Of a stretch of DNA of 64,000 nucleotides, positions 195-60,690 are shown one piece after another. The translations under genes were made by a program, and so were the position numbers. The stretch lies in the IMG/VR virus record IMGVR_UViG_2703718817_000003, one strand, 5' to 3'. Source of the DNA: a virus (taxonomy: Duplodnaviria > Heunggongvirae > Uroviricota > Caudoviricetes). The notes under the pieces were generated by a model. The model did not search any database, was not told the origin of the DNA, and saw only the letters and a list, made by a program, of their open reading frames with translations. Numbering within the stretch: position 1 is the stretch's first letter; each line of letters begins with the position of its first letter.

Positions 195-1100
195 CTATAT
201 TTCCAGACACCTGTTATCACTTAACCCATTACTGGCCTGCTGCCGCAGATATTCCCGTGGCGAGCGATAACCCAGTGCACTATGCGGATGCCATTCGTTA
301 TAATGCTCGAACGCCTCTGCAAGGTTCTTTGCTGCCGTTAACCCGTCTGGTTTAGGCATGATACTGATGTAGTCACGCTTTATCGTTTTCACGAAGCTCT
401 CTGCTATGCCGTTACTCTCCGGACTCCGCACCGCCGTGTTCTTCGGTTCAAGCCCCAACATCCGGGCAAACTGCCGTGTTTCATTAGCCCGGTAGCATGA
501 ACCATTATCCGTCAGCCACTCTACTGGAGACGCCGGAAGCTCGTTGCCGAAGCGGCGTTCCACCGCTCCCAGCATTACGTCCTGTACTGTTTCACTGTCG
601 AAGCCGCCCGTAGTGACTGCCCAGTGCAGTGCCTCACGGTCACAGCAGTCCAGCGCGAACGTGACTCGCAGTTTTTCTCCGTTATCACAGCGGAACTCGA
701 ACCCGTCAGAGCACCATCGTTGATTGCTTTCTTTCACGGCCACTTTGCCAGTATGTGCCCGTTTCGATGGCGGTACAGCGGTTTTTCGCTCAAGCAACAG
801 CGCATTCTGGCGCATGATCCGGTAAACACGTTTGGCATTGATCGCAGGCATACCATCAAGTTCGGCCTGTCTGCGAAGCAGCGCCCATACCCGACGATAA
901 CCATACGTGGGCAGCTCTCCGATAACATGGTGTATACGGAGAAGCACATCCGTATCATCTGAGTGACGGCTGCGGCGACCATCTTTCCAGTCATCGGTTC
1001 GTCTGAGAATTACGTGCAACTGCGCACGCGACACCCGGAGACAACGGCTGACTAAGCTTACTCCCCATCCCCGGGCAATAAGGGCGCGTGCGCTATCCAC
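195..1100 (-). CDS. insD: IS2 transposase InsD (orfB)
   Basis: 301-aa ORF with IS2 InsD sequence ([30 protein letters not shown]...). Confidence 0.9.
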
Positions 1101-14949: not shown

Positions 14950-15164
14950 GTAAAAAAACTGAAGTTTTATGTTACAAAAGCAAACATGTACGCCAAAATG
15001 ACCTAGGCCAAATTCAGCGCGAATAAAAAATTCAAAAAAATTGTTGACACTATTCTGGAAATCACAATCTGGACAAAATCCATTACGCAAACGGCTCCCG
15101 TTGAAGGTTCTTTTGACGACTAACTTTCAGCCGATGCGCGGTAGGGAGTCATAACGCCAAAGCA

Positions 15165-16003: not shown

Positions 16004-16204
16004 CTTTTCGAATCCATTCGATCGGTAAATAACACCCAGCTCACTATCGAGCTGGTCCATGCCTTAAGATTAATGAAAGTCACTTGTTGACAGTCAATAA
16101 ATTCCAGGGCGGCGAAAAAACTCTGTCTATACGGATAGTGCTTGCATTTTGCTCTTTCTGCGTGTAGCGTATATACACAGGTTACACGCACGAATGGAAT
16201 TATT

Positions 16205-47304: not shown

Positions 47305-50300
47305 ATGTGCGCAGATAAAGTAAAGAATATTGTCACCTTATCTTCGGACATTTCCGCTCCACTAATTGCAGACATGCAATACTTTGAGCTGTATAGCACC
47401 GAAGCTCTAAACAGGAAGATGAAAAATATCGTTCTGCCCGGAGTGTACTGTGGGTTTGAACCGGTGCCAGGGGATGGTCTGTTTGTGCGTATTACATCCG
47501 AGAAAACAGAGGGAAGAGGGGCGGCTTCAATTGACGTGGGTAAATGTCAGATATCCGTGCAGCAAGTCAGTGATGTTCTTGTTCCTGTAGAAGCTGGTGT
47601 AACGACAATCATCGTTCTTGAAGCTAATTACGAACATGGAGTGAAAACCAGCCAGGTAGATAGCTCATCGGATATTAGCGCAGCGAGAATTATTGCTCTC
47701 GTTGATGAGGAAATAGCATCTAACCAGATTGAGCTATGCCGCGTGATCGTGCCTGACAATGCTCAAGCCGTTACCGCAGATATGATTAGCACTGAATATC
47801 GTGCTAATCGTGCTGTTGGTGTTGAGTTTTCCAGTGCTTTGGATAGTGACGAAGAATATAAAGCCGCAACACCTCTTGCTATCAGCACGTTAAACAAACT
47901 AAAAGCTCCGGTTGATAGCCCGGAGTTTATTGGTATACCTAAATCTCCAACTCCGGAACAAGGTACAAACAGTACACAAATCGCAAACACTGCCTTTGTT
48001 CAGGCCGCAATAACCGCCCTTATTGATGGTTCTCCTTCAGCGTTGGATACGCTGAAAAAAATTGCAGATGCAATTAACAATGATCCTCAGTTTAGCCAGA
48101 CGATTAATGCTGCTTTAGCTCTTAAAGCACCGTTATTAAGCCCGGCATTTACAGGGGTGCCAACAGCGCCTACAGCGTCACAAGGTACGAACAACACTCA
48201 GATTGCAACAACCGCTTATGTTCGTGCCGCTATTTCTGCATTGGTCGGCTCATCACCAGAAGCTCTTGATACTCTTAATGAGCTTGCTGCGGCGCTGGGC
48301 AATGACCCGAACTTTGCGGCTACAATGACAAATGCCCTGGCAGGTAAGCAGCCTCTCGACGCAACCTTAACCGCGCTCGCTGACCTGGCGACGGGGGCAA
48401 ATAAATTACCGTACTTTACCGGAACAGACACTGTAGCCCAGACTGATTTAACGTCAGTCGGTCGCGATATTCTTGCTAAAACAAGCACACTGGCTGTTAT
48501 CCAATACCTTGGTTTAAGAGAACTCGGAACCAGCGGAGAAAAGCTCCCCCTGTTGAGCACAGCTAATACCTGGAGTGCACGCCAGACTTTCAGCGCGGGG
48601 ATCACTGGTACGCTGACCGGGAACGCCGATACTGCGACGAAATTAAAAACAGCCAGAAAGATTAACGGTGTGGCATTTGATGGGTCGGCAGATATTACTC
48701 TGACCCCTGAAGATCTTGGCTTAACGGATATTGCTTCTCAAGCTGGTAACGCAGTTCAGCGTTCTGGCGACACAATGGGGGGGCAGCTAAAAATTGGCAC
48801 AATAAATGCCCTTCGAATATTTAACCAGGACTTTGGCCTTATCTTCAGGAGATCCGAGGAATATCTTCATCTTATCCCGACAAATGAAGGTGAGGGAGAA
48901 AATGGTGACATCGGCCCATTAAGACCTTTTGCTATAAATTTAAGAACCGGGTTGGTGTCCATCGGTAATGGGGTAACAGTTAGTGGTGGCATTACAGGTA
49001 ATTTGACGGGAAACGCAGATACTGCGACAAAGCTCAAGACGGCACGCACAATCGGCGGAGTGTCATTTGATGGCAGCGCCAATATCGACCTGCCAGGCGT
49101 GAATAAAACAGGTAATCAGAGCACTACCGGCAATGCTGCAACCGCAACGAAACTTCAGACGGCACGCACAATCGGCGGAGTGTCATTTGATGGCAGCGCC
49201 AATATCAACCTGCCGGGTGTGAACATTGCCGGTAACCAGAACACAACAGGTAATGCTGCAACCGCTACAAAACTGCAAACAGCCCGCACAATCAACGGTG
49301 TTAATTTTGATGGTTCTGCGAACATTTCGATACCAACAATTACGTCCAGAGGGCGTGTTACTGCGCTCACCGGTACAACGCAAGGTGCTGCTGCTGGATT
49401 GCAGATGTATGAGGCGTACAACAACGGCTATCCTTCTGCTTACGGGAATGTGCTTCATCTTAAGGGCGCAACGGCAGTTGGTGAAGGCGAGTTGTTCATA
49501 GGCTGGAGCGGTACAAGTGGCGCTCATGCTCCGGCTTTTATTCGCTCTCGCAGAGATTCAACAGATGCAGCATGGTCTGATTGGGCGCAGGTCTACACAT
49601 CGAAGGATTCCATCCCTGGTGTAAATACAACAGGCAACCAGAACACAACCGGAAACGCGGCGTCTGCAACGAAATTACAAACGGCAAGAACCATTGGTGG
49701 CGTTTCATTTAATGGCACCGCAAACATCGACCTGCCAGGTGTGAATAAAACAGGTAATCAGAGCACTACTGGCAATGCCGCAACTGCAACAAAACTGCAA
49801 ACAGCACGCACAATAGGCGGGGTTTCGTTTGATGGCACCGCAAACATCAATCTTCCGGGCGTCAATATTGCCGGGAATCAAAATACAACTGGTAATGCAG
49901 CTACAGCGACAAAGTTAAAAACAGCCAGGAAAATAAGTGGCGTGGCTTTTGATGGTTCCGCAGATATCACATTAACGGCAAGTCATGTTGGTGCGTTAGC
50001 AACAACAGGTGGTACTGTTACCGGTGAAATTATATCCAGCAGCCAAAATGCTATACGCCTAACTTATAATAATAACTATGGATTCCTAATAACTAATACT
50101 GGATATAGTTTCCAGATATCAACCACTGGGCAAAATGTTAATGGTGATGTCGTTTACACTCCATTAAAGATAGATGGCGGTGATGGTCGCGTAGAATTAG
50201 GACGTGCTGATGGTCATGTAAGGGTTATGGGGAATTTATCTGCCGCTGGTCAGATTACCCCTGGTAACTATAGTAATTTCAACACGAAATATCAGGCTAA

Positions 50301-50574
50301 AAACACTGCATATGCCAACATTCATGGATGGCATAAGGATACATCAACTAAGGTGATGATGCAGTGGGGGTTTATAACAAATTTAACTCCAGGAAGCGTG
50401 GTTAACTTTCCGACTACTTTTCCTGAGGCGTGTGCGGTAGTTGTGATTTCGCCTCACAGCGGGAATGCTGTCAATTCAATTCTTTATACATACAACCACT
50501 CAGTCACTGGTTTTACAGTGAAAAGTAGCTCCACTGATAAAATATATGCACAGTATGTTGCTTATGGTTATTAA
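47305..50574 (+). CDS. tail fibre protein with multiple Phage_fiber_2-type repeats
   Basis: 1089 aa; about nine copies of GNA(A/D)TATKL(Q/K)TARTIGGVSFDGSANI repeat; followed by Tfa. Confidence 0.8.
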   Translation: MCADKVKNIVTLSSDISAPLIADMQYFELYSTEALNRKMKNIVLPGVYCGFEPVPGDGLFVRITSEKTEGRGAASIDVGKCQISVQQVSDVLVPVEAGVTTIIVLEANYEHGVKTSQVDSSSDISAARIIALVDEEIASNQIELCRVIVPDNAQAVTADMISTEYRANRAVGVEFSSALDSDEEYKAATPLAISTLNKLKAPVDSPEFIGIPKSPTPEQGTNSTQIANTAFVQAAITALIDGSPSALDTLKKIADAINNDPQFSQTINAALALKAPLLSPAFTGVPTAPTASQGTNNTQIATTAYVRAAISALVGSSPEALDTLNELAAALGNDPNFAATMTNALAGKQPLDATLTALADLATGANKLPYFTGTDTVAQTDLTSVGRDILAKTSTLAVIQYLGLRELGTSGEKLPLLSTANTWSARQTFSAGITGTLTGNADTATKLKTARKINGVAFDGSADITLTPEDLGLTDIASQAGNAVQRSGDTMGGQLKIGTINALRIFNQDFGLIFRRSEEYLHLIPTNEGEGENGDIGPLRPFAINLRTGLVSIGNGVTVSGGITGNLTGNADTATKLKTARTIGGVSFDGSANIDLPGVNKTGNQSTTGNAATATKLQTARTIGGVSFDGSANINLPGVNIAGNQNTTGNAATATKLQTARTINGVNFDGSANISIPTITSRGRVTALTGTTQGAAAGLQMYEAYNNGYPSAYGNVLHLKGATAVGEGELFIGWSGTSGAHAPAFIRSRRDSTDAAWSDWAQVYTSKDSIPGVNTTGNQNTTGNAASATKLQTARTIGGVSFNGTANIDLPGVNKTGNQSTTGNAATATKLQTARTIGGVSFDGTANINLPGVNIAGNQNTTGNAATATKLKTARKISGVAFDGSADITLTASHVGALATTGGTVTGEIISSSQNAIRLTYNNNYGFLITNTGYSFQISTTGQNVNGDVVYTPLKIDGGDGRVELGRADGHVRVMGNLSAAGQITPGNYSNFNTKYQAKNTAYANIHGWHKDTSTKVMMQWGFITNLTPGSVVNFPTTFPEACAVVVISPHSGNAVNSILYTYNHSVTGFTVKSSSTDKIYAQYVAYGY
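48600..49960 (+). repeat. tandem near-identical ~120-bp DNA repeats inside tail fibre gene
   Basis: For example 49021-49140 vs 49141-49260 and 49680-49800 vs 49800-49920 are nearly identical at nucleotide level. Confidence 0.7.
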
Positions 50575-50605
50575 AAATATAGTTAATTAGAATGAAGGTG
50601 CTTAA

Positions 50606-51028
50606 ATGGCAAAGTATTACAGCAAAGAGACTGGTGGTTTCTACGACGACAGACTAAAAGAAGATTACGATAAAAACGGTTCATGGCCGTCCGATACTGT
50701 ACATATACCTGATGACTTATATGATGAATTGTTATCAGGGTATGGCAATGGGAAAATAATAATTGCAAATGGCGATGGTTATCCAATGTTATCTGACCCA
50801 CAACCTATGAGCTTAGAGGATAGAGTCAGCATTGCTGAAAACACCAAAAGTAGTCTTATCAATGATGTGAGCATAAAAATATCAACGCTTCAGGATGCTG
50901 TTGATATGGATATTGCCACTGATGAGGAAATAGAAATGTTGACAAAGTTAAAGAGGTATAGAGTTCTTCTTAATAGAGTTGACACTTCTGTTGATGCAGA
51001 TATCTCATGGCCTGAGATGCCTGCATAA
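50606..51028 (+). CDS. tail fibre assembly protein (Tfa)
   Basis: N-terminal MAKYYSKETGGFY and C-terminal LQDAVDMDIATDEEIEMLTKLKRYRVLLNRVDTSVDADISWPEMP match Tfa family. Confidence 0.8.
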   Translation: MAKYYSKETGGFYDDRLKEDYDKNGSWPSDTVHIPDDLYDELLSGYGNGKIIIANGDGYPMLSDPQPMSLEDRVSIAENTKSSLINDVSIKISTLQDAVDMDIATDEEIEMLTKLKRYRVLLNRVDTSVDADISWPEMPA

Positions 51029-51070
51029 ACAATCATAACAATCCAATCAGCACTGCTTTTTTGATATTTC

Positions 51071-51096
51071 AAGCCCTCTTTTGTTGAGGGCTTTAT
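51071..51096 (+). terminator. hairpin terminator after tfa
   Basis: AAGCCCTC-TTTTGTT-GAGGGCTT hairpin then T-rich. Confidence 0.5.
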
Positions 51097-51142
51097 TAGT
51101 GAGTGCTTTTGTGACCTTTTTTAGTAATACAATCCTTTGGTA

Positions 51143-51176
51143 CAAAAAAGCCGCCGTCCAGTCAATGACGGCGGGC
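51143..51176 (-). terminator. Rho-independent terminator for small minus-strand gene
   Basis: GCCCGCCGTC-ATTGACTG-GACGGCGGC hairpin followed by TTTTTT on minus strand. Confidence 0.6.
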
Positions 51177-51187
51177 AAAATGAACAC

Positions 51188-51406
51188 TCAGTTAGTGGTA
51201 TCTGAGAGGGGGGCATTATATTCACTGAATGACGCTTGTGAAGACTCACATGTCATCATTTTGTCCTCAAGAATCAGCTCACATCTTGCGCATTCAAGCG
51301 TATTTCTCTTTAAAGCCGTGTTTGGACCATTTTGTTGATACGCGAATTTGGCATCCTCCACGCTCTGAGTGACGAGGTTTACGGACCACCGGGCCATCAT
51401 ATGCAT
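51188..51406 (-). CDS. small protein on opposite strand between tfa and holin
   Basis: 72-aa ORF with own terminator 12 nt downstream. Confidence 0.4.
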   Translation of the reverse strand: MHMMARWSVNLVTQSVEDAKFAYQQNGPNTALKRNTLECARCELILEDKMMTCESSQASFSEYNAPLSDTTN

Positions 51407-51488
51407 CCATTTTGTGTGAATGGCATTTAGTCGGGAAATAACAAACTGGATAAGTTGAAGCCGCGTTAAACGTCATTTCTGGAGGGGT

Positions 51489-51815
51489 ATGTTTGCAGAT
51501 TATGAAAATCTGGCTGTAGCAGTCATAACATCCCTGCTGAGTGGAACCGGCGTATTCCTTCTCGGAGTTAGAGACGGGCGCATTTCTGCGTCACTGCTCA
51601 ACCTCGCGAGTGAATTGTTTACTGCGGTAACTGCCGGGCTTGCGGGGTTTTGGGTGGCTGATAGCTATGAATGGCCGGAAGGCATCATTTACTGCGTTGT
51701 TCTGATTGCCAGTAACAACGGAAGTGAAATTTTACAGGGCTTGAAGTCCAGAGCTAGTAACGTCTTGAATCTCTTAAGCGTAATAGCGAGTGGGGGAAAA
51801 GGTGGAGAGAAGTAA
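51489..51815 (+). CDS. holin (multi-TM small membrane protein, lambda S / P1 LydA-like)
   Basis: 108 aa with three hydrophobic segments and charged C-terminus. Confidence 0.55.
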   Translation: MFADYENLAVAVITSLLSGTGVFLLGVRDGRISASLLNLASELFTAVTAGLAGFWVADSYEWPEGIIYCVVLIASNNGSEILQGLKSRASNVLNLLSVIASGGKGGEK

Positions 51816-52261
51816 TGGGTGACTTTGGAAATTATTTCATTTTTATCATGGCATTTGTTGCCGTTATTGACCGTTTCTTATTTCGTCGCAAGAGTGTTGA
51901 TATTTTGAGCATTGGCGAAGCTGTAGTGAAAGAGTCTGCTATAGCGTTTCCTGTGTCGCTTCGCGTTAAACGAAGCTGGGTAAGCAATGCACAAATCGAA
52001 TATTGGTTGCAGGACTTGAAAAATCCATCTGTGGTTATTTCGGGGAAAACCAGACCAGTTGACGCATCAAAACGCGGTGAGAGAGAAGAATATTTGCTCA
52101 TCGACACGAAATATCTTGAGCCAGCGAAGTGGGATCTAAAGGTCACATTGACTAACGGTAATTGCCGCCTGAATCCGCTTTATCGCATTTTCCCTATCAA
52201 TGACTGCATAGAACGTCAGTTTATGATTGAAAAGTGTGAAGGAGACTGGAATGTCAAATAA
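51815..52261 (+). CDS. membrane-anchored protein downstream of holin (antiholin/LydB-like candidate)
   Basis: 148 aa, N-terminal TM (YFIFIMAFVAVI); start overlaps holin stop. Confidence 0.4.
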   Translation: MGDFGNYFIFIMAFVAVIDRFLFRRKSVDILSIGEAVVKESAIAFPVSLRVKRSWVSNAQIEYWLQDLKNPSVVISGKTRPVDASKRGEREEYLLIDTKYLEPAKWDLKVTLTNGNCRLNPLYRIFPINDCIERQFMIEKCEGDWNVK

Positions 52262-52868
52262 GTCTAATTATGTTCTTCTTAATTATGATGAGTTAAACGA
52301 AAAGGGGCTGGCAAAACTCGTCAAAGAAATCGATAAAGGAGGCTACAAGATAGCGAGGGTGATCCCCGCCAGTAATGGCAGGAAGAAAGACGGGATCATG
52401 ACGCGCACGTTTACCCTTATCGGAATCGATGAGCAGACGATGGACGTTCAGGTTAATGATACTGGTGATATTTCTGGTGTAAAACTGAACGGAAAAATTG
52501 TTCCTTTCAAGCCAGTTAAAACGCTGATGGCTTTAGGGCAATCACTGGCTGCTTTATTTAATAAAGGCGCATCATCATTTCAGAAATCATTGGCGCGTAA
52601 GTTAGCTCGTGCGGCGAAAGATATTGATGATGGGAATAAGAAAATAAAAGGCGTTAAGTCCAATGCGCAGAAACTAGCAGAGGCAAAGGAATCTCGCGAT
52701 GCGATCCGCGAGGATATTGAAAGGGCCAAAGAAAAATTAAATCAGGTGCAAGGTAATTCAGACCGCGCAACAAGAGAAACTGAAATCATTAGAACCGAGA
52801 TGGCGCAGGAACTGGCGAAAACTCGCGTATTGAAAGAAGAAATAGCGCGCCTGGAGGAAGATGCATGA
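52251..52868 (+). CDS. hypothetical coiled-coil protein (dar-like operon)
   Basis: ATG 52251 with GGAGA SD; C-terminal half charged coiled-coil. Confidence 0.45.
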   Translation: MSNKSNYVLLNYDELNEKGLAKLVKEIDKGGYKIARVIPASNGRKKDGIMTRTFTLIGIDEQTMDVQVNDTGDISGVKLNGKIVPFKPVKTLMALGQSLAALFNKGASSFQKSLARKLARAAKDIDDGNKKIKGVKSNAQKLAEAKESRDAIREDIERAKEKLNQVQGNSDRATRETEIIRTEMAQELAKTRVLKEEIARLEEDA

Positions 52869-54817
52869 TAAAGAAACCTATTCGAATAAATATCCAGTCC
52901 ACTTTTGCAGATACGCTCACTGGATATACGCCTAATCGTTGGGTGGCGGAAGATATCACCGAGGATGATTTACTTATCGAGCCTGCGACGCTGGAAGATA
53001 TCGAGCTGGCCTATATGGGCAACGAAATTTTGGTAACTACCAATGAGGCAATGTTCGAAGCTATAACCACAACAAAATTGCGGTTAGCGCAAACAATGCG
53101 AGCATTTGTCCGGGCGCTTAATCGCGGCCTGAATGGCACTGACATTGCTGCGGGTACGGATGAGGCAGGTGAATATGAAGACGGACGTAATAGTATCGGT
53201 GGGGCAATCATTGGGCGCGTGCGCCGGGTTGCTAATATCCCTGTTGTAACAGCACAAATACCTCTAACCGATGGACAAACGACAAGCATAATTTTCCATT
53301 CTCCAACCGCAGACGGCACAAGAATTAAAGGGGATGACGAGCTGGTTGCGTTTCAGTTTCTTCTTAACAAAAGAAACGTTACGCATGTTGTTGCGCCAAT
53401 CGGTGGGCGTGATGTATCTCTGAGCCAGGTGTGTCAGGCGCTTTCTAACCTCATTGAGCGTAACAGTGCAAAATTCAAAAAAGCAAAGGAGCGCCAGGAC
53501 AAAATGAAGGCTGATATTGAGGGGTATCTCAATGAAGCCGACAAGCTGGCAGAAGAACGTTCTGTGCTGATTGAGCAGGTTGAAGACGCACAGCGGGGGC
53601 TGGCAGAGAAACGCTCAACACTCAATGATATGCAGAATAAATTAGACGCACAAAAAGCCCTTAACGCGGAATTGCAGGCTAAACGCGATAATTTATTGTC
53701 AGCTAAGAGCCAAGGAACTAAAGAGCGTGCCTTCAATGATCAACTGCGACACATAAAACATAATCTTGCTACAGAAGGCCAAACAACGCTGGATAATGGT
53801 GCTGTAGTTAAGTATGTCACGTCAGGCAGTGATAGCTTTGTCACGATTGAGGCACCAGAAGGCAATTTCAGTATTGATGTCAGTGCTGTTAAAGGTGGGA
53901 GTTCAGCGGACGCTGCAACCAAATTACTTAAAGCCTATCGTGAACATAATGCTGATCAATACAAAGTGGATGTGTTGCCGGGCCAGCCTGAGCCAACTGA
54001 TCAGCCGCAGCCTGAACAGGAGCCACAACCAGCATCACATCCTGATCCCCTGGAGGTTGGTAAATATCGCTATGCGCTCCAATCTCGCCCGGCGGGTGTT
54101 GGTGCGGTTCCTGAAGGAAATAAAGCTGTACTTGACCGTCCTGATCAGGCTGATCCGTATTACGAATATGCTCGTCACGGAATCATTACGTATGACCGCA
54201 AACTGACAGACGAAGAAGTCAGTCAGTACGAGTTGCTATATCTCCCTGGTGACGATGAATTGAAAGAGATTGCAGGCGAATTGGTTGCGTCCAGTATGTC
54301 GAACCATATTGATGGCTATGTTGATCTGTTTGGAAGCGACTTGAAAACCTTTAAGGCGCAGATAAAAATCCTCTTCCGCAAAGCATTTCCTAACGTCGCT
54401 TATCCACTTGGAGATGGGGAGAACCTTTTTATAATGGATATCTATGACGCGCTTCAGAATCAATCAGAAGTAGTCGAAGCTGAACAGACATTAGATCAGG
54501 CACCGGAAGCAGTACAAGAACCAGAACCTGAGTCTGAACCTGAATCCCCCCAAGAGTCTGATACAGGTTCAGATGGGCCAGTAGTTAGTGAGGCTGATCA
54601 GGAGGCGGACAGTGCGCTGGAATATCTGAAATCCGTGCCGTTGCAGTTTACGTCCCGTGATTTGACGGTGATTAGAGCGGAGTTTGATCGCATTCAGGAG
54701 GCAGCTAATGTTCTTATCAACGCAGGTCGATATGATGAGAACGAGTCACTTGTTGGTGCGGCAGCCGATCACCTGATCAACATTCTGGCAGAGATACAAC
54801 AAGGGGGCGTGTGGTGA
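52865..54817 (+). CDS. large hypothetical protein (DarA-like by size and position)
   Basis: 650 aa; ATGA overlap with upstream gene; acidic Pro/Glu-rich linkers; no enzymatic motif. Confidence 0.45.
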   Translation: MIKKPIRINIQSTFADTLTGYTPNRWVAEDITEDDLLIEPATLEDIELAYMGNEILVTTNEAMFEAITTTKLRLAQTMRAFVRALNRGLNGTDIAAGTDEAGEYEDGRNSIGGAIIGRVRRVANIPVVTAQIPLTDGQTTSIIFHSPTADGTRIKGDDELVAFQFLLNKRNVTHVVAPIGGRDVSLSQVCQALSNLIERNSAKFKKAKERQDKMKADIEGYLNEADKLAEERSVLIEQVEDAQRGLAEKRSTLNDMQNKLDAQKALNAELQAKRDNLLSAKSQGTKERAFNDQLRHIKHNLATEGQTTLDNGAVVKYVTSGSDSFVTIEAPEGNFSIDVSAVKGGSSADAATKLLKAYREHNADQYKVDVLPGQPEPTDQPQPEQEPQPASHPDPLEVGKYRYALQSRPAGVGAVPEGNKAVLDRPDQADPYYEYARHGIITYDRKLTDEEVSQYELLYLPGDDELKEIAGELVASSMSNHIDGYVDLFGSDLKTFKAQIKILFRKAFPNVAYPLGDGENLFIMDIYDALQNQSEVVEAEQTLDQAPEAVQEPEPESEPESPQESDTGSDGPVVSEADQEADSALEYLKSVPLQFTSRDLTVIRAEFDRIQEAANVLINAGRYDENESLVGAAADHLINILAEIQQGGVW

Positions 54818-55182
54818 AAATATCAGTAACGGAGCGCCTTAGCTTAGGCAAAGAACTGTCTGAGCTGATGTCAGCGCAAAAAAGCGCGACTGCGGTACAA
54901 CGTGTCACTATTGGCGTGCGGATAGTTGAAGTGATGATGAAGCTGGGGCTTGGTTCATCGAATAATCCAGCACAACAGCAAGAAGAGGAAGTGCAACCGG
55001 CGGCACAAGAAACGCCTAAAATTGTTGCTGACTTCCTTAGTGGTGCATTTACTAAATCATCACAAATGGAGTTCATCGATGCTTTGAGAGGCATATCTCA
55101 ATATATTGGTGAATTTTTGACACTCGACCAGGCCAAAGAACAGACCGTAAACTGGGTTTCAGCTAACGGGTATGCAGCGTAA
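54811..55182 (+). CDS. hypothetical protein
   Basis: 123 aa, GTG start overlapping upstream stop. Confidence 0.4.
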   Translation: MVKISVTERLSLGKELSELMSAQKSATAVQRVTIGVRIVEVMMKLGLGSSNNPAQQQEEEVQPAAQETPKIVADFLSGAFTKSSQMEFIDALRGISQYIGEFLTLDQAKEQTVNWVSANGYAA

Positions 55183-55273
55183 AAGAGAGGGGCAGAATGC
55201 CCCTTTCTTCTTAAAATAGTCACCGAAATAACACACTTTTTACACTGCCTTTTTTACAGAAAGGTGGTTAATT

Positions 55274-56659
55274 GTGACTCAAAACGTAACATCAGCACTT
55301 CTGGCCGCAGCGAACATTGAGGGGGTTATCGCTGTGGTGTCATCTCTTGAAAAGCAAGAGACGAAGTTGGGGCGTAGCAGCTATGTCGTCACCAGCAAAG
55401 GCGACGAAGTTAAAACAGCGTTCAAGGTTATTGATGCCAAAAAGCTCATCATTTCTAACAACCTGGACGGAAGTATAAATCCGTCATTTCCGGAGGAACT
55501 CCAGCCTCGCGATCGCACCCGACTGTCAAGTAAGCTCCAGGTTAACCGTATCGCCGCCAATTTACGCCCGGCACAGCTCACTGATTCGGGTATGAGTAGT
55601 CATGGTTCCCCGATTGTTGGTCCGGATAATGTCGTTGAGTCTGGTAATGGTCGAAGCATGGGAATCTGGCGTGCTTATGAACAAGGACAGGCTGAAGATT
55701 ACCGACAATATCTTATCGATCACGCTAAAGAGTTTGGCCTTAATCCCGAAGACGTCAGGGCAATGGTGATGCCTGTACTGGTTCGCGAGCGCCTCACTGA
55801 CGTTGATCGTGCTCAATTTGCACGCGACTCAAACATCAGCGATCTGCAAGAGATGGCTGCAAGTGAGAAAGCGTATGCGGATGCGCAATTTCTCACTGAG
55901 AGCGTCATGGCGCTATTTAATCCTTCAGATGATGGAAATCTACTGGCGCGGTCCAATGATGCGTTTATTCGTGCGTTTTTGCACGAAATAGGCGATACCG
56001 CGACGGCAGGTTTGCTTACAGCCGATGGACGTCCAACGAAACAGCTTATCGATCGCATTCAGAATGCGATTTTTGCCAAAGCCTATAAGGATGAGCGACT
56101 TGTTCGGCTTGTGGCGGAAGAACCGGATCCGGAAATGCGCAATATCCTGACCGCGCTTAATACAGCAGCCAGTGACTTTGCGCAAATGCAGTCGATTTCT
56201 GGCGATGCACATCATGATGCTGTAACTGGTCTGGTTGATGGTATAGAGCAGGTGAACGGTCTGGATAAACAGGCTATAGCAGCACTCCAGGACGCGATTA
56301 ACCTTGTTCGTGAAGCCAAAGACAACGGTCAGGCAGTGGAAGAGGTGATAGCCCAGCGCGGACTCTTCGGTGATAGCACGCCGGAAGCTGAGGCGTTGGC
56401 GCTATTCATCGTGGCAAATAATCGAAGCGCGAAGCGCATGGGGGCTGCATTCAAAAAAATGGCACAAAAAATCAACGACGAACTGATTCATAAACAGCAG
56501 GCGTTGGGCGATATGTTCGGCGGTGGAGATGTCGATCTACGTAGTATTTTGACCGCTGTTTCTAATGAGATTGAACTGGAACATGGAGAGGGGAAAGGGC
56601 TTAACTTCACGATGTTCGAAGCCAAAACAGAACAAAGCGATTTTGGGCTGGAAACCTGA
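55274..56659 (+). CDS. hypothetical protein
   Basis: 461 aa, GTG start with AAGGTGG SD; terminator hairpin (CCCCGGA..TCCGGGG, 56675-56693) downstream. Confidence 0.45.
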   Translation: MTQNVTSALLAAANIEGVIAVVSSLEKQETKLGRSSYVVTSKGDEVKTAFKVIDAKKLIISNNLDGSINPSFPEELQPRDRTRLSSKLQVNRIAANLRPAQLTDSGMSSHGSPIVGPDNVVESGNGRSMGIWRAYEQGQAEDYRQYLIDHAKEFGLNPEDVRAMVMPVLVRERLTDVDRAQFARDSNISDLQEMAASEKAYADAQFLTESVMALFNPSDDGNLLARSNDAFIRAFLHEIGDTATAGLLTADGRPTKQLIDRIQNAIFAKAYKDERLVRLVAEEPDPEMRNILTALNTAASDFAQMQSISGDAHHDAVTGLVDGIEQVNGLDKQAIAALQDAINLVREAKDNGQAVEEVIAQRGLFGDSTPEAEALALFIVANNRSAKRMGAAFKKMAQKINDELIHKQQALGDMFGGGDVDLRSILTAVSNEIELEHGEGKGLNFTMFEAKTEQSDFGLET

Positions 56660-56771
56660 CCTGGCGACCGGACACCCCGGATAACCTCCGGGGGATTCGG
56701 TATTTCTTCTTTGAATAGAGCATTTTTAACAAATATCCCGTAAATCCTCGCCCAGCCAGGGCGGGGAGCAG

Positions 56772-57203
56772 TCACCGCATTGGTGTGACAGATACGGCGA
56801 TATTTTTATTCAGTTGATGCAGTGCCAGCTCGACAGTTTCAACTTTCGATGAATGTTCGACGTCGAGAAGCCGATCAATCTGTGTTCCATTTTTTCCGAG
56901 TTTGCGCGCCAACTCTGCTTTGCGTGTGCCGGTTTCTATCATCGCGTTGTGGAGTGCAGCCTTCATTGCTGGTAGCACTGGCAAAGAGACAACGTACTCA
57001 CCTTCTTTTGGCTCGCTACCAGTGGGAACAGGTCGGCGTTCTTCAATCTCAATCGCAACCGCTGCGACCAATCCATAACCAGCCTCAAGCAACGCTTCTT
57101 TAACTGAGTCACCCACGGAATTAAACAATGGTAGGTCGCGGCATGATACGACATACGCGCCGGTTTTGTCGTCGCGCTCCAGTTTTACCGGATAGTTAAA
57201 CAT
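56772..57203 (-). CDS. hicB: HicB antitoxin
   Basis: N-terminal YPVKLERDDKTGAYVVSCRDLP RNase-H-like HicB fold signature plus C-terminal HTH; downstream of hicA. Confidence 0.75.
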   Translation of the reverse strand: MFNYPVKLERDDKTGAYVVSCRDLPLFNSVGDSVKEALLEAGYGLVAAVAIEIEERRPVPTGSEPKEGEYVVSLPVLPAMKAALHNAMIETGTRKAELARKLGKNGTQIDRLLDVEHSSKVETVELALHQLNKNIAVSVTPMR

Positions 57204-57233
57204 AGAGAAGCTCCTAGTGAAAAAGGCTGGGGC

Positions 57234-57440
57234 TTAAAGCCACAGGTCCTTCATTATTTTCTTGCGTAGCGGTTCAGGCATTTCCTTTGAACCGTGGTCC
57301 GGGAAAACCGACCGCTTTCCGTTCAGGTTCACTTTCTGATGACTGCCGCCACCTGGCGCTTTCCTGAACTCTGCCCCTTGCTGGATTAACCAGCGTTTGA
57401 ACTGTGACTGCTCCCCGCCCGGTCGGACGAGGATTCCCAC
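57234..57440 (-). CDS. hicA: HicA toxin
   Basis: GSHQK, RSVFPDH, LRKKIMKDL motifs of HicA family; no ATG, putative GTG start 4 nt after tnpB stop. Confidence 0.65.
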   Translation of the reverse strand: MGILVRPGGEQSQFKRWLIQQGAEFRKAPGGGSHQKVNLNGKRSVFPDHGSKEMPEPLRKKIMKDLWL

Positions 57441-58720
57441 TTCTCAGGCCGCAACCGTCTGTTCGACGGATTTACGCTGGCCTCCATGGACAGAAACGAC
57501 GAGTCCCGCCGCCTTTAGTTCCAGTATTCCTTTTTGCCGGATGTTGAGTGCCGCATTGATATCGCGGTCATGCTCTGCTCCACATTCAGGGCATCGCCAG
57601 ATGCGTTTATGAAGAGGCATTTCCGGCATCCTGTAACCACAACAATGGCAGTTTTTCGAACTGGCAAACCACTGGTCGAGTTTTACCAGGTGAACGCCTT
57701 TTTCTGCAGCCTTGTACTCCAGCTTTGTGATGAAGCTGTGCCAGCCTGCATCACCTATCGCTCTTGCCAGATTGTGGTTTTTCATCATGTTGGCTGTTTT
57801 CAGCGTCTCCACAATTACCGCTTGGTTTTCGTCAACAATTGCACGAGAGAGCTTGTGTTGAAAATCAGCACGGGCATTAGCCACCCGTTCGTGTAAGGCC
57901 GCAAGACGGATTCTGGCCTTTTTACGATTCGCGCTTCCCTTTTGCTTACGGGATAATGCTTTTTGTTTGCGTCGCAGATTACGACCTGCATTGATGAGAT
58001 GGCGAGGATTCGGAACTTTTACAGCATCAGAAGTGATGGCATAGTGCTCCAGTCCCATATCCAGACCTGTAATCTTTTCTTCCTTCAGGTACGTGGGTTT
58101 CTCTGGTGCGGAAGCGCCATCGTCACAAAGAATGGAAGCGTAGTATTTCCCCGTTGCAGAACGGGTGACAGTGATGCTTTTCAGCTTTCCATGAAGTTCA
58201 CGATGAAGGCGTGCTTCTATCGGGGCCAGTTTGGGGATTTTGATGGCATTATCCAGCACCTTAATCCCGACACAGTGATAGCTCGATTGTTTTCCGCGTT
58301 TGCGTTTAAACGTCGGGAACCGGGCTTTCAGCTTCGGATTAAAAAAGTTGGAAAACGCCACATCAAGATTGATTACCGCCTGTTGCAATGCCATTGAATC
58401 AAATTCTTTAAGCCAGGCATATCTGCGGGACTTCTTCGCCACAGACAACAACGGCTTTAAATCTTTACGCGGACTTAAATTCACTCCGTGTCGCTGGTAA
58501 GCGTGTTTTTTGATGTGAAGAGCTTTGTTGTACGCAAAACGCACTGCACCGAACTGAGCATTGAGATACTCAGCCTGTTCAGTGGTTGGATAGATGCGTA
58601 CTTTTGTTGCTCTTAACATAGTCACGGCTCATTGATACAGGTTTTTATGCTAACACCGTAATAATATTTTTAAAGCCCTTCGAGCTTTTCCGCCTTTCCT
58701 CCCCGCCCGCATTGGGCGAG
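57415..58720 (-). mobile_element. IS605/IS1341-group tnpB-only element (ends approximate)
   Basis: tnpB with no adjacent tnpA; element ends not defined from sequence alone. Confidence 0.45.
57444..58625 (-). CDS. tnpB: IS605-family TnpB (OrfB) RNA-guided nuclease-type transposase accessory protein
   Basis: 393 aa; N-terminal KVRIYPTTEQAEYLN..RFAYNKAL, central GLDMG, C-terminal CHCCGYR...CPECGAEHDRDINAALNI zinc finger. Confidence 0.85.
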   Translation of the reverse strand: MTMLRATKVRIYPTTEQAEYLNAQFGAVRFAYNKALHIKKHAYQRHGVNLSPRKDLKPLLSVAKKSRRYAWLKEFDSMALQQAVINLDVAFSNFFNPKLKARFPTFKRKRGKQSSYHCVGIKVLDNAIKIPKLAPIEARLHRELHGKLKSITVTRSATGKYYASILCDDGASAPEKPTYLKEEKITGLDMGLEHYAITSDAVKVPNPRHLINAGRNLRRKQKALSRKQKGSANRKKARIRLAALHERVANARADFQHKLSRAIVDENQAVIVETLKTANMMKNHNLARAIGDAGWHSFITKLEYKAAEKGVHLVKLDQWFASSKNCHCCGYRMPEMPLHKRIWRCPECGAEHDRDINAALNIRQKGILELKAAGLVVSVHGGQRKSVEQTVAA

Positions 58721-58883
58721 GGTTCTCGGCGGTTGTTTGCTGAATACTTCACAAGTTTCCTTATGCGATTTATCCATCGTGGGCGATAAGAATAGCAACA
58801 CAAAAGATGTAAAACACAACAAAAATGTTTATAAACATAACTTTTGTGTTTAGTGATTGCGTTTTTGGAAAAGCATTTCCGCA

Positions 58884-58958
58884 TATGAAAAAAAACATAA
58901 ATGATGAAAAAAACATCAATAAATGGTGAAAACAACGAAAAATTACTGATGAAATCAC
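58884..58958 (+). repeat. four direct (T/G)RTGAAAA repeats in AT-rich region upstream of portal-like gene
   Basis: TATGAAAAAAAACAT, GATGAAAAAAACAT, GGTGAAAACAAC, GATGAAATCAC at ~20-bp intervals. Confidence 0.35.
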
Positions 58959-59004
58959 ACACTGGATAAGCTGCCACGAAATCGGAAACCTTTTGCGGTG
59001 AATC

Positions 59005-60690
59005 ATGGCAACGAAAGACAAAAACAAGGGCTTTCTGTCGGCATTGAAGAAAGCCTTCAGCGGTGGTGATGTTACGCCTGCCGATCCGGTCGTATTTGCG
59101 AGCGGGCATAGCGTCGTTGCTCGTTCTGGCCTGTCCGCCTTGCGTCCTGGCATCCTGGGGAGCAATAGCGATGGCATGACAAGCGCGGCGGATACTGTAT
59201 CTATATCGGCAGAATTACCGAGTGACCGCCTGCAAAAATACAACATACTGGAGACGATGGCGAAAAGTCCGACTATCTCCACAGCATTAAACATTCACAT
59301 TGCGCATTCTCTGGCTCCATCAAAAAAAACAGGCCTCGCATTTATTCTCTCTCCGAAAAATGGGGCGGATAAGGAGGCTGTAAGTCGATGTGAGGAATTG
59401 ACCGCTGATTTAAGCTCAATGATTAATGATGGCCTGCCATCGTGGGCCATGATCATGGCTATTTTCGGTGTGTCGTATATCCGTCCATATGCAGAGCAAG
59501 GGAAGGGGATAACTGGAATTGAGTCGAGCTATTACACGCTCCCTCATTTCGTTCAGGAGTTTTATCGCGGTAGCCAACTTGTCGGATTCAGCGGTGATTA
59601 TATTCTGGATACGCATACTTTGCGCAGAGTTATAACCGAACCGTGGAATCTGGTTTCCATGAAAAACCCGTACTGGATGCCTCAGCATAAAGTAATGCCA
59701 GTAACTTACGGCACTAACGGCTATTCCTTGCTTAGTGAACAGCAGGACAAGCCGTTAATGGAGACGCAGAACTACGGTACGTCGTTTCTTGAATACAGTT
59801 ATGAACCCTACCTGAATTTATGTGCCGCGCTTGCTGCGCTGAAAGCAACGCGAAACAACGCTGCAAAAATTGATCGCCTGATTGCACTCACAACGAACAC
59901 GATAGATCCGGTAAACGCGGCGAATTATACGCGCGGGGTCAGCCAGGCACTGAAGCGTCATAGCGACCTCGTAGCGCAACGGTCGATTAATTCTAATGCT
60001 CTCCCATCTGTACTTAACCATCTGATACCCGTCATGGGGGATGGGAAGAACGGGATCACCATTGATACGCAATCTATACCCGCAGATATCAGTGGTATCG
60101 AAGACGTTATGTTTCATCTCCGACAGCTCGCGGCAAGCCTCGGTATTGACGCAACAATGCTTGGCTGGGCTGATCAGATGAGTGGTGGACTTGGAGAAGG
60201 CGGTTGGCAGCAAACAGCTATCCAGGCCGCCTTACGCGCGAACTGGATCAGACAGGCCGCCCAGCGGACTATTTATCGGCTTCATGACATTCACCTCGCT
60301 TATAAATACGGGAAGGTTTACACCGAAAAAAACCGTCCTTATGACGTGCAATTCAACTCAATGAACACAGCTATCCAGGAAGAGGAAAACCGAGAGCTGG
60401 ATGCGCGCGCCAACTTCGTAGCTGTCATCTCGCAAATAATGGACCAGATCCAGAACAACCCGAAACTGGCGGGTAGCGACGCGTTTATGCGTTATCTGTT
60501 CACCGAACAGCTTCGTATCGACGATGACACTCTCAACGTAATGATCAAAGAGTTTAAGGCGAATGAATCAGAGCAAAACAACGAGCATGGTATGTACGAA
60601 TCCGCGCCGTTGTCGTCCGGTGACGATCCGGAAAACTGGACGCAAGAACAATTAATCAACTTTGCAAAATTTGTGATGAGCAATAATTAA
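59005..60690 (+). CDS. putative portal protein
   Basis: 561 aa followed by protease/scaffold-like gene; assignment by size and gene order. Confidence 0.35.
   Translation: MATKDKNKGFLSALKKAFSGGDVTPADPVVFASGHSVVARSGLSALRPGILGSNSDGMTSAADTVSISAELPSDRLQKYNILETMAKSPTISTALNIHIAHSLAPSKKTGLAFILSPKNGADKEAVSRCEELTADLSSMINDGLPSWAMIMAIFGVSYIRPYAEQGKGITGIESSYYTLPHFVQEFYRGSQLVGFSGDYILDTHTLRRVITEPWNLVSMKNPYWMPQHKVMPVTYGTNGYSLLSEQQDKPLMETQNYGTSFLEYSYEPYLNLCAALAALKATRNNAAKIDRLIALTTNTIDPVNAANYTRGVSQALKRHSDLVAQRSINSNALPSVLNHLIPVMGDGKNGITIDTQSIPADISGIEDVMFHLRQLAASLGIDATMLGWADQMSGGLGEGGWQQTAIQAALRANWIRQAAQRTIYRLHDIHLAYKYGKVYTEKNRPYDVQFNSMNTAIQEEENRELDARANFVAVISQIMDQIQNNPKLAGSDAFMRYLFTEQLRIDDDTLNVMIKEFKANESEQNNEHGMYESAPLSSGDDPENWTQEQLINFAKFVMSNN

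What the first reader, a model, noticed from the sequence alone, without database searches (positions are those of the whole stretch)
51489..56659. Holin-led operon whose gene sizes parallel the P1 lydA-lydB-hdf-darA-ddrA antirestriction/head-internal-protein operon
The order holin-like (108 aa), membrane protein (148 aa), 213 aa, 650 aa, 123 aa, 461 aa resembles in order and size the P1 operon encoding holin/antiholin together with the Dar internal head proteins that protect injected DNA from type I restriction. I cannot verify sequence similarity from memory, so this rests on synteny and size only. If correct, the 650-aa and neighbouring proteins are candidate anti-restriction factors.
Basis: inference. 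Interest (0 to 1): 0.45.

Follow-up and report, generated by a model that had tools for sequence, protein, structure and literature searches.

The report
P1-type lysis and Dar antirestriction operon
This is the ordinary, already annotated lydA-lydB-hdf-darA-ddrA-ddrB operon of a D6-like (P1-related) phage-plasmid, encoding a holin/antiholin pair and head-internal proteins that in P1 shape the capsid and shield injected DNA from type I restriction.

Summary
All six are sequence homologs, in the same order, of P1 LydA, LydB, Hdf, DarA, DdrA and DdrB: 34-41% identity for the first five, and 64% for the 461-aa ORF against P1 DdrB residues 2-442. The stretch is about 80% identical in DNA to Escherichia phage D6, whose record already labels these genes as P1 lydA/lydB/hdf/darA/ddrA/ddrB homologs, and about 99% identical to three E. 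coli plasmids. The size-and-synteny guess is therefore correct and is now backed by sequence.

Refinements:
It keeps the ParB-like module and lacks P1's C-terminal half, as in D6.
- Hdf probably starts at ATG 52251, giving 205 aa rather than 213.
- DarB and Ulx, the other two Dar components, are not in the window. By synteny they lie about 1.7 kb past its right end.
- A conserved promoter-like motif precedes lydA. A second copy precedes ddrB, after a hairpin.

Virion packaging and antirestriction activity are inferred from P1, not shown here. This is a good confirmation of a known system, with low novelty.

The parts
51435..51456 (+). Promoter-like motif GAAATAACAAACTGGA-TAAGTT, 54 nt before the lydA start. 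It is a candidate D6-group late promoter (conserved box plus a TAnnnT -10-like hexamer).
   Evidence: The pattern gives 8 hits at up to 1 mismatch against 1.42 expected, and 0 of 100 shuffles reach 8. The four best hits lie 49-61 nt before the + strand genes R-like, lydA, ddrB and prt. A weight-matrix scan finds the same motif at syntenic D6 sites that were not used to build the matrix. Function is inferred, not shown. The P1 LPdar sequence AAGTTACTT-TGCA-TACCAT is not present here.
51489..51815 (+). lydA homolog: holin, 108 aa.
   Evidence: 41% identity to P1 LydA (E 4e-25) and 94% to D6 LydA. PHROG holin phrog_1527, E 1.3e-38. The Pfam Phage_holin_3_3 (LydA) hit scores 20.5 bits, below the 28.4-bit cut-off. 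Hydrophobic segments at about 5-29 and 34-57.
51815..52261 (+). lydB homolog: LydA antagonist (antiholin), 148 aa. Its start overlaps the lydA stop (ATGA).
   Evidence: Pfam PF16084 LydB, 86.9 bits, E 1.5e-24. PHROG 'lysis determining protein', E 4e-68. 34% identity to P1 LydB and 94% to D6. N-terminal hydrophobic segment at about 3-26.
52251..52868 (+). hdf homolog: DarA_N-domain head-internal protein. Likely 205 aa from ATG 52251; the mechanical ORF starts at TTG 52227 (213 aa).
   Evidence: Pfam DarA_N, 66 bits. PHROG 'Hdf-like antirestriction', E 2e-72. 40% identity to P1 Hdf and 80% to D6. Matches the Hdf chain 9ukm_H, E 3e-25. Shine-Dalgarno AAGGAG before ATG 52251.
52865..54817 (+). darA homolog: head-internal protein, 650 aa (DarA_N plus DarA_C). 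Its start overlaps the hdf stop (ATGA).
   Evidence: Pfam DarA_N 136 bits and DarA_C 69 bits. 40% identity to P1 DarA over residues 36-649 (E 1e-144) and 78% to D6. Matches chain 9ukm_I 'Defense against restriction protein A', E 5e-124.
54811..55182 (+). ddrA homolog, 122-123 aa. The start is GTG 54811, or GTG 54814 overlapping the darA stop (GTGA).
   Evidence: PHROG 'DdrA-like anti-restriction protein', E 1.4e-44. 36% identity to P1 DdrA (E 3e-26) and 65% to D6. No Pfam family, and P1 DdrA also has none. Start context.
55188..55212 (+). Terminator-like hairpin AGGGGCA-GAA-TGCCCCT followed by TTCTTCTT, just after the ddrA stop.
   Evidence: Sequence read. The scan reported the same stem, on the - strand. 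Whether it acts as a terminator or attenuator is inferred.
55225..55246 (+). Second copy of the promoter-like motif (GAAATAACACACTTTT-TACACT), 49 nt before the ddrB start.
   Evidence: D6 has a syntenic site before its ddrB (16.6 bits) that was not used to build the matrix. P1 has only 12 nt between ddrA and ddrB.
55274..56659 (+). ddrB homolog, short form: 461 aa, DdrB-like ParB domain plus a conserved about 290-aa extension, with no C-terminal half.
   Evidence: Pfam ddrB-ParB, 137.8 bits. 64% identity to P1 DdrB residues 2-442 of 995, and 90% to the 454-aa D6 DdrB. PHROG phrog_2299, profile positions 10-447 of 995. The motif VESGNGR, with R127, is invariant in the window, D6 and P1. P1 DdrB residues 441-995 find nothing in the window or in D6's first 46 kb, and only weak chance-level matches (E 0.33 and 0.50) in the rest of D6 and the related plasmid.
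56674..56710 (+). Possible operon-end hairpin (CCCCGG-ATAACCT-CCGGGG, with a T-rich stretch shortly after), convergent with hicB.
   Evidence: Sequence read. A weak terminator-like hit at 56688-56700. Tentative.

Best explanation
The region is the darA operon of a D6-like, P1-related phage-plasmid: lydA-lydB-hdf-darA-ddrA-ddrB.

Shown here:
- Six-for-six homology and collinearity with P1 and D6.
- Intact reading frames under purifying selection.
- Tight start/stop overlaps from lydA through ddrA.

Inferred from P1 work:
- The operon is transcribed late in the lytic cycle. The likely promoter is the conserved motif at 51435, driven by an Lpa-like activator encoded outside the window.
- LydA forms the membrane lesion that releases the endolysin, and LydB delays it.
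- Hdf and DarA bind as pairs to the inner capsid surface at penton-hexon junctions. They help set the large head size and are needed to load the other Dar proteins.
- DdrA and DdrB are packaged with them.
- On infection these proteins leave the head with the DNA and protect it, in cis, from type I restriction. In P1 the DarA/Hdf/DdrA branch acts against the EcoA and StySA systems. The DarB/Ulx/DdrB branch acts against EcoB and EcoK.

As in D6, DdrB is a short ParB-like protein without P1's C-terminal half. It is preceded by a hairpin and a second copy of the promoter-like motif, so its dosage may be set separately.
For: ORFs. Pfam domains LydB, DarA_N, DarA_N plus DarA_C, and ddrB-ParB. PHROG families holin, lysis determining protein, Hdf-like, DarA ('released from the phage upon host infection') and DdrA-like, plus the unnamed phrog_2299 (profile length 995, as P1 DdrB) for the 461-aa protein. 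BLASTP to each P1 and D6 protein. tblastn of DarA finds DarA in P1, P7, SJ46, RCS47 and others at about 39% identity over 94% of its length. About 80% DNA identity to D6 over window 51435-56625, with gene-by-gene P1 labels in the D6 record. The P1 operon map gives the same order, with sizes 109/147/203/639/121/995 aa. DarA and Hdf match chains of the P1 virion structure 9ukm. dN/dS against D6 is 0.05-0.22. The surrounding window is a D6-like phage-plasmid: tail fibre genes upstream, portal, Pro-like and RepL-like genes downstream, and Rep3, ParM and Ref elsewhere. P1 functions come from papers: six Dar proteins in the virion with assigned roles (PMC9024508); 55 DarA-Hdf pairs on the inner capsid, absent from emptied heads, and loss of all Dar proteins without DarA or Hdf (PMC12810830); action in cis against type I systems and BREX (PMC12707154). 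Promoter-like motif.
Against: No experiment on this element or on D6 shows that these proteins are in virions or protect against restriction. Identity to the P1 proteins is only 34-41% for five of the six. DarB and Ulx are absent from the window, so the full six-protein system cannot be shown for this molecule. The Pfam LydA hit is below its cut-off. DdrB lacks the C-terminal half present in P1, so its processing and role may differ. No P1-type late promoter sequence lies upstream of lydA. The element carries signs of decay or remodelling nearby, a cin relic and an IS insertion in hicA, so its ability to make phage is unproven.
Confidence: 0.9

Rival explanations
1. The operon is orthologous to P1's, but in this lineage it serves mainly or only capsid morphogenesis and lysis timing, with little or no antirestriction activity. 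Hdf and DarA would act as inner-capsid braces and head-size determinants.
For: In P1, DarA and Hdf are head-size determinants bound to the inner capsid (PMC9024508; PMC12810830). Strong purifying selection on Hdf and DarA (dN/dS 0.08-0.10) fits a structural role. DarB, the P1 effector against EcoB and EcoK, is not in the window.
Against: DdrA and DdrB homologs are retained and under selection. In P1 these are assigned antirestriction or DarB-loading roles rather than head-size determination (PMC9024508). A 99%-identical plasmid and D6 both carry DarB (2278 aa) and Ulx. The two roles are not exclusive in P1.
Confidence: 0.07
2. The cluster is a relic in a defective plasmid prophage and is no longer used. 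The 461-aa DdrB would be a truncation caused by insertion of the hicAB/TnpB block downstream.
For: A cin invertase relic lies just upstream, and the invertible tail-fibre segment is missing. A TnpB-type insertion sequence sits 750 bp downstream and interrupts hicA. P1 DdrB is 995 aa against 461 aa here.
Against: All six frames are intact and identical in length to those in 99%-identical plasmids. dN/dS is 0.05-0.22. D6, a phage propagated on E. coli C600, has the same short DdrB (454 aa) ending at the same place, with different downstream genes and no hicAB or TnpB there. The short form is therefore ancestral to the D6 group, not a local truncation. A plasmid without the insertion sequence has the same 461-aa gene.
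Confidence: 0.03

Closest known systems
Escherichia phage D6 orf30-orf25 (lydA, lydB, hdf, darA, ddrA, ddrB homologs; NC_050154 / MF356679)
   Same: Same six genes in the same order and orientation, with the same short DdrB (454 against 461 aa), a similar about 90-nt gap before ddrB, and the same upstream motif. DNA identity is about 80%. Protein identities are 94, 94, 80, 78, 65 and 90%.
   Different: D6 has an intact cin invertase and an invertible tail-fibre segment immediately upstream; here only a 24-codon cin relic remains. Downstream of ddrB, D6 has a DUF4145 gene and orf23; here there are hicB, hicA and a TnpB insertion sequence. This DdrA allele is rare: 6 of 613 plasmids with a DdrA match are at least 95% identical, 112 fall in the 60-80% band that includes the D6 type, and 495 are below 60% (P1 type among them).
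Phage P1 darA operon (lydA-lydB-hdf-darA-ddrA-ddrB, late promoter LPdar), part of the six-protein Dar system
   Same: Gene order, sizes of the first five products (109/147/203/639/121 aa in P1), domain content, and position next to the tail-fibre genes. DarA and Hdf align with the chains resolved inside the P1 capsid.
   Different: Identity is only 34-41% for five proteins. DdrB here lacks P1 residues 443-995; that half was reported to contain a zincin-like metallopeptidase thought to process DdrB (PMC5512222). P1 has lydC upstream and hxr downstream, and neither is found here. P1 has 12 nt between ddrA and ddrB; here there are 91 nt holding a hairpin and a promoter-like motif. The LPdar sequence is not conserved.
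Phage T4 internal head proteins (for example IPI*). Functional analogy only, from general knowledge and as cited in PMC9024508 and PMC12810830.
   Same: Proteins packaged in the head and injected with the DNA to counter host restriction.
   Different: There is no sequence relationship. T4 IPI* targets a type IV system, whereas P1 Dar targets type I systems and BREX. No comparison was run here.

Membership tests
P1-type Dar (defence against restriction) system, darA operon | Hdf, DarA (DarA_N plus DarA_C), DdrA and DdrB homologs encoded together, co-oriented, directly after lydA-lydB | tested here: met
   The order is identical to P1 and D6.
P1-type Dar (defence against restriction) system, darA operon | Resides in a P1-like myovirus or phage-plasmid genome with P1-type head genes | tested here: met
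   The window is about 80% identical to D6 across structural and plasmid genes. Homologs of the portal, Pro and RepL genes follow the operon. Rep3 and ParM plasmid functions are present.
P1-type Dar (defence against restriction) system, darA operon | Companion darB (about 2250-aa methylase/helicase) and ulx genes present in the same genome | tested here: inconclusive
   Neither is in the window (tblastn). A plasmid 98.9% identical to the window's last 5 kb has a 2278-aa DarB (98% identical to D6 DarB) and a 144-aa Ulx starting about 1.7 kb beyond where the window ends.
P1-type Dar (defence against restriction) system, darA operon | DdrB with the C-terminal half found in P1 (reported metallopeptidase domain) | tested here: not met
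   The 461-aa protein aligns only to P1 DdrB residues 2-442. Nothing in the window or D6 convincingly matches residues 441-995; the only hits outside the window are chance-level, E 0.33-0.50. D6 shares this state, so it defines a D6-type variant rather than excluding homology.
P1-type Dar (defence against restriction) system, darA operon | Products packaged in the virion head, DarA processed by the Pro protease, and released with the DNA | not testable with these tools
   Needs virion proteomics or cryo-EM. There is only the sequence match to the 9ukm chains.
P1-type Dar (defence against restriction) system, darA operon | Protects incoming DNA in cis from type I restriction | not testable with these tools
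   Needs plating assays on restricting hosts.
P1-type Dar (defence against restriction) system, darA operon | Transcribed from a P1-type late promoter (-22 box AAGTTACTT plus -10) | tested here: not met
   No such sequence lies upstream of lydA, and there is only one strict match in the whole window, at 16085 on the - strand. A different conserved motif occupies the equivalent place.
LydA/LydB holin-antiholin pair | Sequence membership in the LydA and LydB families | tested here: met
   LydB: Pfam 86.9 bits against a 28-bit cut-off. LydA: the Pfam hit is only 20.5 bits against 28.4, but BLASTP gives 41% identity to P1 LydA (E 4e-25) and PHROG holin gives E 1e-38.
LydA/LydB holin-antiholin pair | Small membrane proteins, adjacent and translationally coupled | tested here: met
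   Hydrophobic segments in both proteins. The ATGA overlap at 51815.
LydA/LydB holin-antiholin pair | Controls lysis timing | not testable with these tools
   Needs genetics.
DdrB-like ParB domain (ParB/sulfiredoxin superfamily) | Domain match with the conserved active-site arginine | tested here: met
   PF18763, 137.8 bits, residues 42-173. VESGNGR with R127 is invariant across the window, D6 and P1. The conserved arginine is described in PMC5512222.

The most novel reading that the evidence does not exclude
The D6-type cassette may be wired differently from P1's. ddrB is a stand-alone ParB-like protein without the self-processing half. It sits behind a hairpin and its own copy of a D6-group late-promoter motif (GAAATMACAMACTG-NN-TAnnnT) that differs from the P1 late promoter. 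This particular lineage also carries a rare, strongly diverged DdrA allele: 65% identical to D6, 36% to P1, and at least 95% matched in only 6 of 613 plasmids. That allele could have shifted which restriction systems are countered.
Probability: 0.25. Interest if true: 0.3.

Novelty: already known. Interest (0 to 1): 0.12.

Why it matters
The finding matters mainly for annotation. In the 99%-identical RefSeq plasmids these genes are labelled only 'hypothetical protein' or 'head protein'. They can be named LydA, LydB, Hdf, DarA, DdrA and DdrB with confidence. D6-like phage-plasmids are common in Escherichia and Salmonella, with hundreds of plasmid records matching. Their Dar cassettes probably influence which restricting hosts they can enter. 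The three discrete DdrA allele classes and the short DdrB offer a natural series for testing how Dar specificity is set. None of this changes current understanding of the system.

Tried and rejected
1. Chance resemblance in size and order: rejected, because all six proteins are homologous to their P1 counterparts.

2. The 461-aa ORF as a ddrB truncated by the downstream hicAB/TnpB block: rejected. D6 and a plasmid without the insertion sequence have the same short gene. No convincing remnant of the P1 C-terminal half exists in the window, D6 or the related plasmid (nothing in the window; weak chance-level matches, E 0.33-0.50, elsewhere).

3. A P1-type late promoter upstream of lydA: not found.

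4. Sigma-70 promoter and terminator scan of 50900-57500: counts were no higher than in shuffles and showed nothing useful upstream of lydA. It did find the hairpin after ddrA.

5. Lpa, DarB and Ulx in the window: none.

6. Solved structures related to DdrB: none at E up to 0.01.

7. Rfam scan of 50500-59500: only a sub-threshold IS009 hit, 36 bits against a gathering score of 117, inside the tail-fibre assembly gene. I treat it as chance.

8. Key papers not held in the library: Piya et al. 2017 (PMC6011833), Gilcrease and Casjens 2018 (PMC5800970) and Lobocka et al. 2004 (PMC523184). P1 functions are therefore cited through later open papers, and I could not check whether the D6 late-promoter motif has already been described.

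9. The large protein-database searches, structure prediction and fold searches were not run, because the answer was not in doubt.
Full report

| ORF | Size |
|---|---|
| 51489-51815 | 108 aa |
| 51815-52261 | 148 aa |
| 52227-52868 | 213 aa |
| 52865-54817 | 650 aa |
| 54811-55182 | 123 aa |
| 55274-56659 | 461 aa |

Four junctions are overlaps typical of translational coupling. These are ATGA at 51815, an 11-nt overlap before ATG 52251, ATGA at 52865, and GTGA at 54814. Only ddrA and the last gene are separated, by 91 nt.

**Identity.** Pfam recognises four of the products:
- LydB in the 148-aa protein (86.9 bits).
- DarA_N in the 213-aa protein.
- DarA_N plus DarA_C in the 650-aa protein.
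- The ddrB-like ParB domain in the 461-aa protein (137.8 bits).

The LydA holin model hits the 108-aa protein below its cut-off (20.5 against 28.4 bits). PHROGs assigns five of the six to named families: holin, lysis determining protein, Hdf-like antirestriction, the DarA family, and DdrA-like anti-restriction protein. The 461-aa protein falls in an unnamed family, phrog_2299, matching positions 10-447 of a 995-position profile, the length of P1 DdrB (E from 1e-38 to 0).

I fetched the P1 and D6 operons and compared each protein by BLASTP:

| Protein | Identity to P1 | Identity to D6 |
|---|---|---|
| LydA | 41% | 94% |
| LydB | 34% | 94% |
| Hdf | 40% | 80% |
| DarA | 40% (E 1e-144) | 78% |
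| DdrA | 36% | 65% |
| DdrB | 64% (P1 residues 2-442 of 995) | 90% |

The DNA is about 80% identical to phage D6 over window 51435-56625. The D6 record already labels these genes 'similar to P1 gene lydA / lydB / hdf / darA / ddrA / ddrB'. DarA and Hdf also match the two Dar chains in the solved P1 virion structure 9ukm (E 5e-124 and 3e-25). Against D6, dN/dS is 0.05-0.22 for five genes, and dS is saturated for ddrA. These are working genes.

**Refinements.**
- Hdf most likely starts at ATG 52251 (205 aa). An AAGGAG lies 6 nt upstream, the D6 alignment begins at residue 9, and RefSeq calls a 618-nt gene in a 99%-identical plasmid.
It keeps the ParB-like domain, with the motif VESGNGR (R127) invariant in the window, D6 and P1, plus about 290 further conserved residues.
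- The short DdrB lacks P1 residues 443-995. That half was reported to hold a zincin-like metallopeptidase proposed to process DdrB before packaging (PMC5512222). No convincing trace of it exists in the window, in D6 or in the related plasmid: there is nothing in the window, and only chance-level matches (E 0.33-0.50) elsewhere.
- D6 has the same short gene ending at the same place with different neighbours. The short form is therefore a trait of the D6 group, not a local truncation.

**Context.** The window is a D6-like phage-plasmid.
- Upstream are a 1089-aa tail fibre gene and a tail-fibre assembly gene.
- Downstream are hicB and hicA, a TnpB gene, and then homologs of the portal, Pro and RepL genes.
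- Elsewhere are a Rep3 initiator, ParM and ParA partition genes, Ref and a Rha-type gene.
- The 20-44 kb part is also about 80% identical to D6.
- Plasmids of 90-94 kb from E. coli and E. marmotae match at 97-99%. In those records the operon is labelled only 'hypothetical protein' and 'head protein'.
- DarB and Ulx, the other two Dar proteins, are not in the window. In a plasmid 98.9% identical to the window's last 5 kb, they start about 1.7 kb beyond where the window ends, and they are 98% identical to the D6 proteins.

**How it most likely works.** These steps are inferred from P1 and were not tested here.
- The P1 virion contains six Dar proteins. The roles assigned are as follows: DarA and Hdf determine head size and incorporate the Dar system; DdrA antagonises EcoA; DdrB and Ulx help load DarB; and DarB inhibits EcoK and EcoB (PMC9024508).
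- Cryo-EM shows 55 DarA-Hdf pairs on the inner capsid surface at penton-hexon junctions, touching DNA and absent from emptied heads. Loss of either protein removes all the other Dar proteins (PMC12810830).
- Protection acts only in cis, on the DNA packaged with the proteins. It extends to several type I systems and BREX (PMC12707154).
- I therefore expect late expression here. LydA and LydB would time lysis, and the four Dar homologs would be loaded into proheads and ejected with the DNA.

**Regulation.** The P1 late promoter LPdar (AAGTTACTT-TGCA-TACCAT) is not conserved here.
- A different motif, GAAAT[A/C]ACA[A/C]ACTG-NN-(T/C)AnnnT, lies 49-61 nt before the starts of the R-like gene, lydA, ddrB and the portal gene. 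It gives 8 hits at up to one mismatch against 1.42 expected, and none of 100 shuffles reach 8.
- A weight matrix built from seven sites finds weaker copies before the capsid gene and the pmgB-like gene in the window. It also finds copies at syntenic D6 sites that were not used to build it, before ddrB, prt, pmgB, upfC and the lysozyme-like orf16.
- This is a good candidate for the late promoter of the D6 group. The Lpa-like activator gene lies outside the window.
- The copy before ddrB follows a hairpin with a T-rich tail right after ddrA. P1 has only 12 nt at that junction.
- I could not check whether this motif has been published, because the D6 genome paper is not held.

**Comparison and novelty.** This is a member of the P1 Dar/darA-operon family in its D6-type variant.
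- The defining features testable in sequence are met.
- The exceptions are the long DdrB and the P1 promoter sequence, and D6 shares both differences.
- The companion darB and ulx genes could not be confirmed within the window.
- Packaging and antirestriction activity cannot be tested with these tools.
- The DdrA allele here is uncommon. Of 613 plasmids with a DdrA match, 6 are at least 95% identical, 112 fall in the 60-80% band that includes the D6 type, and 495 are below 60%, P1 type among them.

The system, its architecture and even its D6 version are already annotated in public records.

Noticed in passing
window 51260-51331 (- strand), within the 460-bp gap 51029-51488: There is a relic of the Cin DNA invertase. 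24 codons match Cin residues 11-34 of P1 and D6 (71% identity, E 6e-6). The rest of cin and the invertible tail-fibre C segment found in P1 and D6 are absent, so this element appears to have a fixed tail fibre. A strong hairpin with a T run on the - strand at 51151-51174 looks like the old cin terminator.
   Followed up: partly
window 57408-58739 (TnpB ORF 57444-58625, - strand): A 1332-bp insertion sequence carries only an IS605-type TnpB gene (393 aa; Pfam OrfB_IS605 and Cas12f1-like TNB domains). Compared with plasmid NZ_LR890273.1, it is inserted within the first three codons of hicA. The hicA ORF in the window (57234-57440) gains 11 new N-terminal codons from the end of the insertion sequence.
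   Followed up: partly
window 56660-59004, between ddrB and the portal gene: This is a variable cargo spot. It holds hicB-hicA plus TnpB here, and a DUF4145 gene plus orf23 in D6. In plasmid NZ_CP085065.1 it holds DUF3944, an HTH regulator, hicBA and TnpB, with ddrB relocated to the far side of that block.
   Followed up: partly
window 46795, 51435, 55225 and 58951 (+); weaker copies at 15058, 27953, 30708 and 39282 (+): The recurrent motif GAAAT[A/C]ACA[A/C]ACTG-NN-(T/C)AnnnT lies 43-157 nt upstream of late-type genes and is conserved at syntenic sites in D6. It is a candidate D6-group late promoter and differs from the P1 late-promoter box.
   Followed up: partly
window 47305-50574 (+): The 1089-aa tail fibre protein contains many copies of a roughly 30-residue repeat of the form GN..TATKL.TAR.I.GV.FDG.ANI.LPGVN..GNQ.TT, visible in the translation. 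It was not analysed further.
   Followed up: no
operon compared with its neighbours and with D6: Divergence from D6 is uneven. lydA and lydB are 92-94% identical in DNA with dS 0.15-0.36. hdf, darA and ddrB are 76-80% identical with dS 1.3-1.6, and ddrA is 65% identical. DarB in the related plasmid is 98% identical in protein to D6 DarB. This suggests recombinational mosaicism within the D6 group.
   Followed up: partly
window 195-1100 (- strand): An IS3-family transposase (rve integrase core plus HTH_21) sits at the left edge of the window.
   Followed up: no
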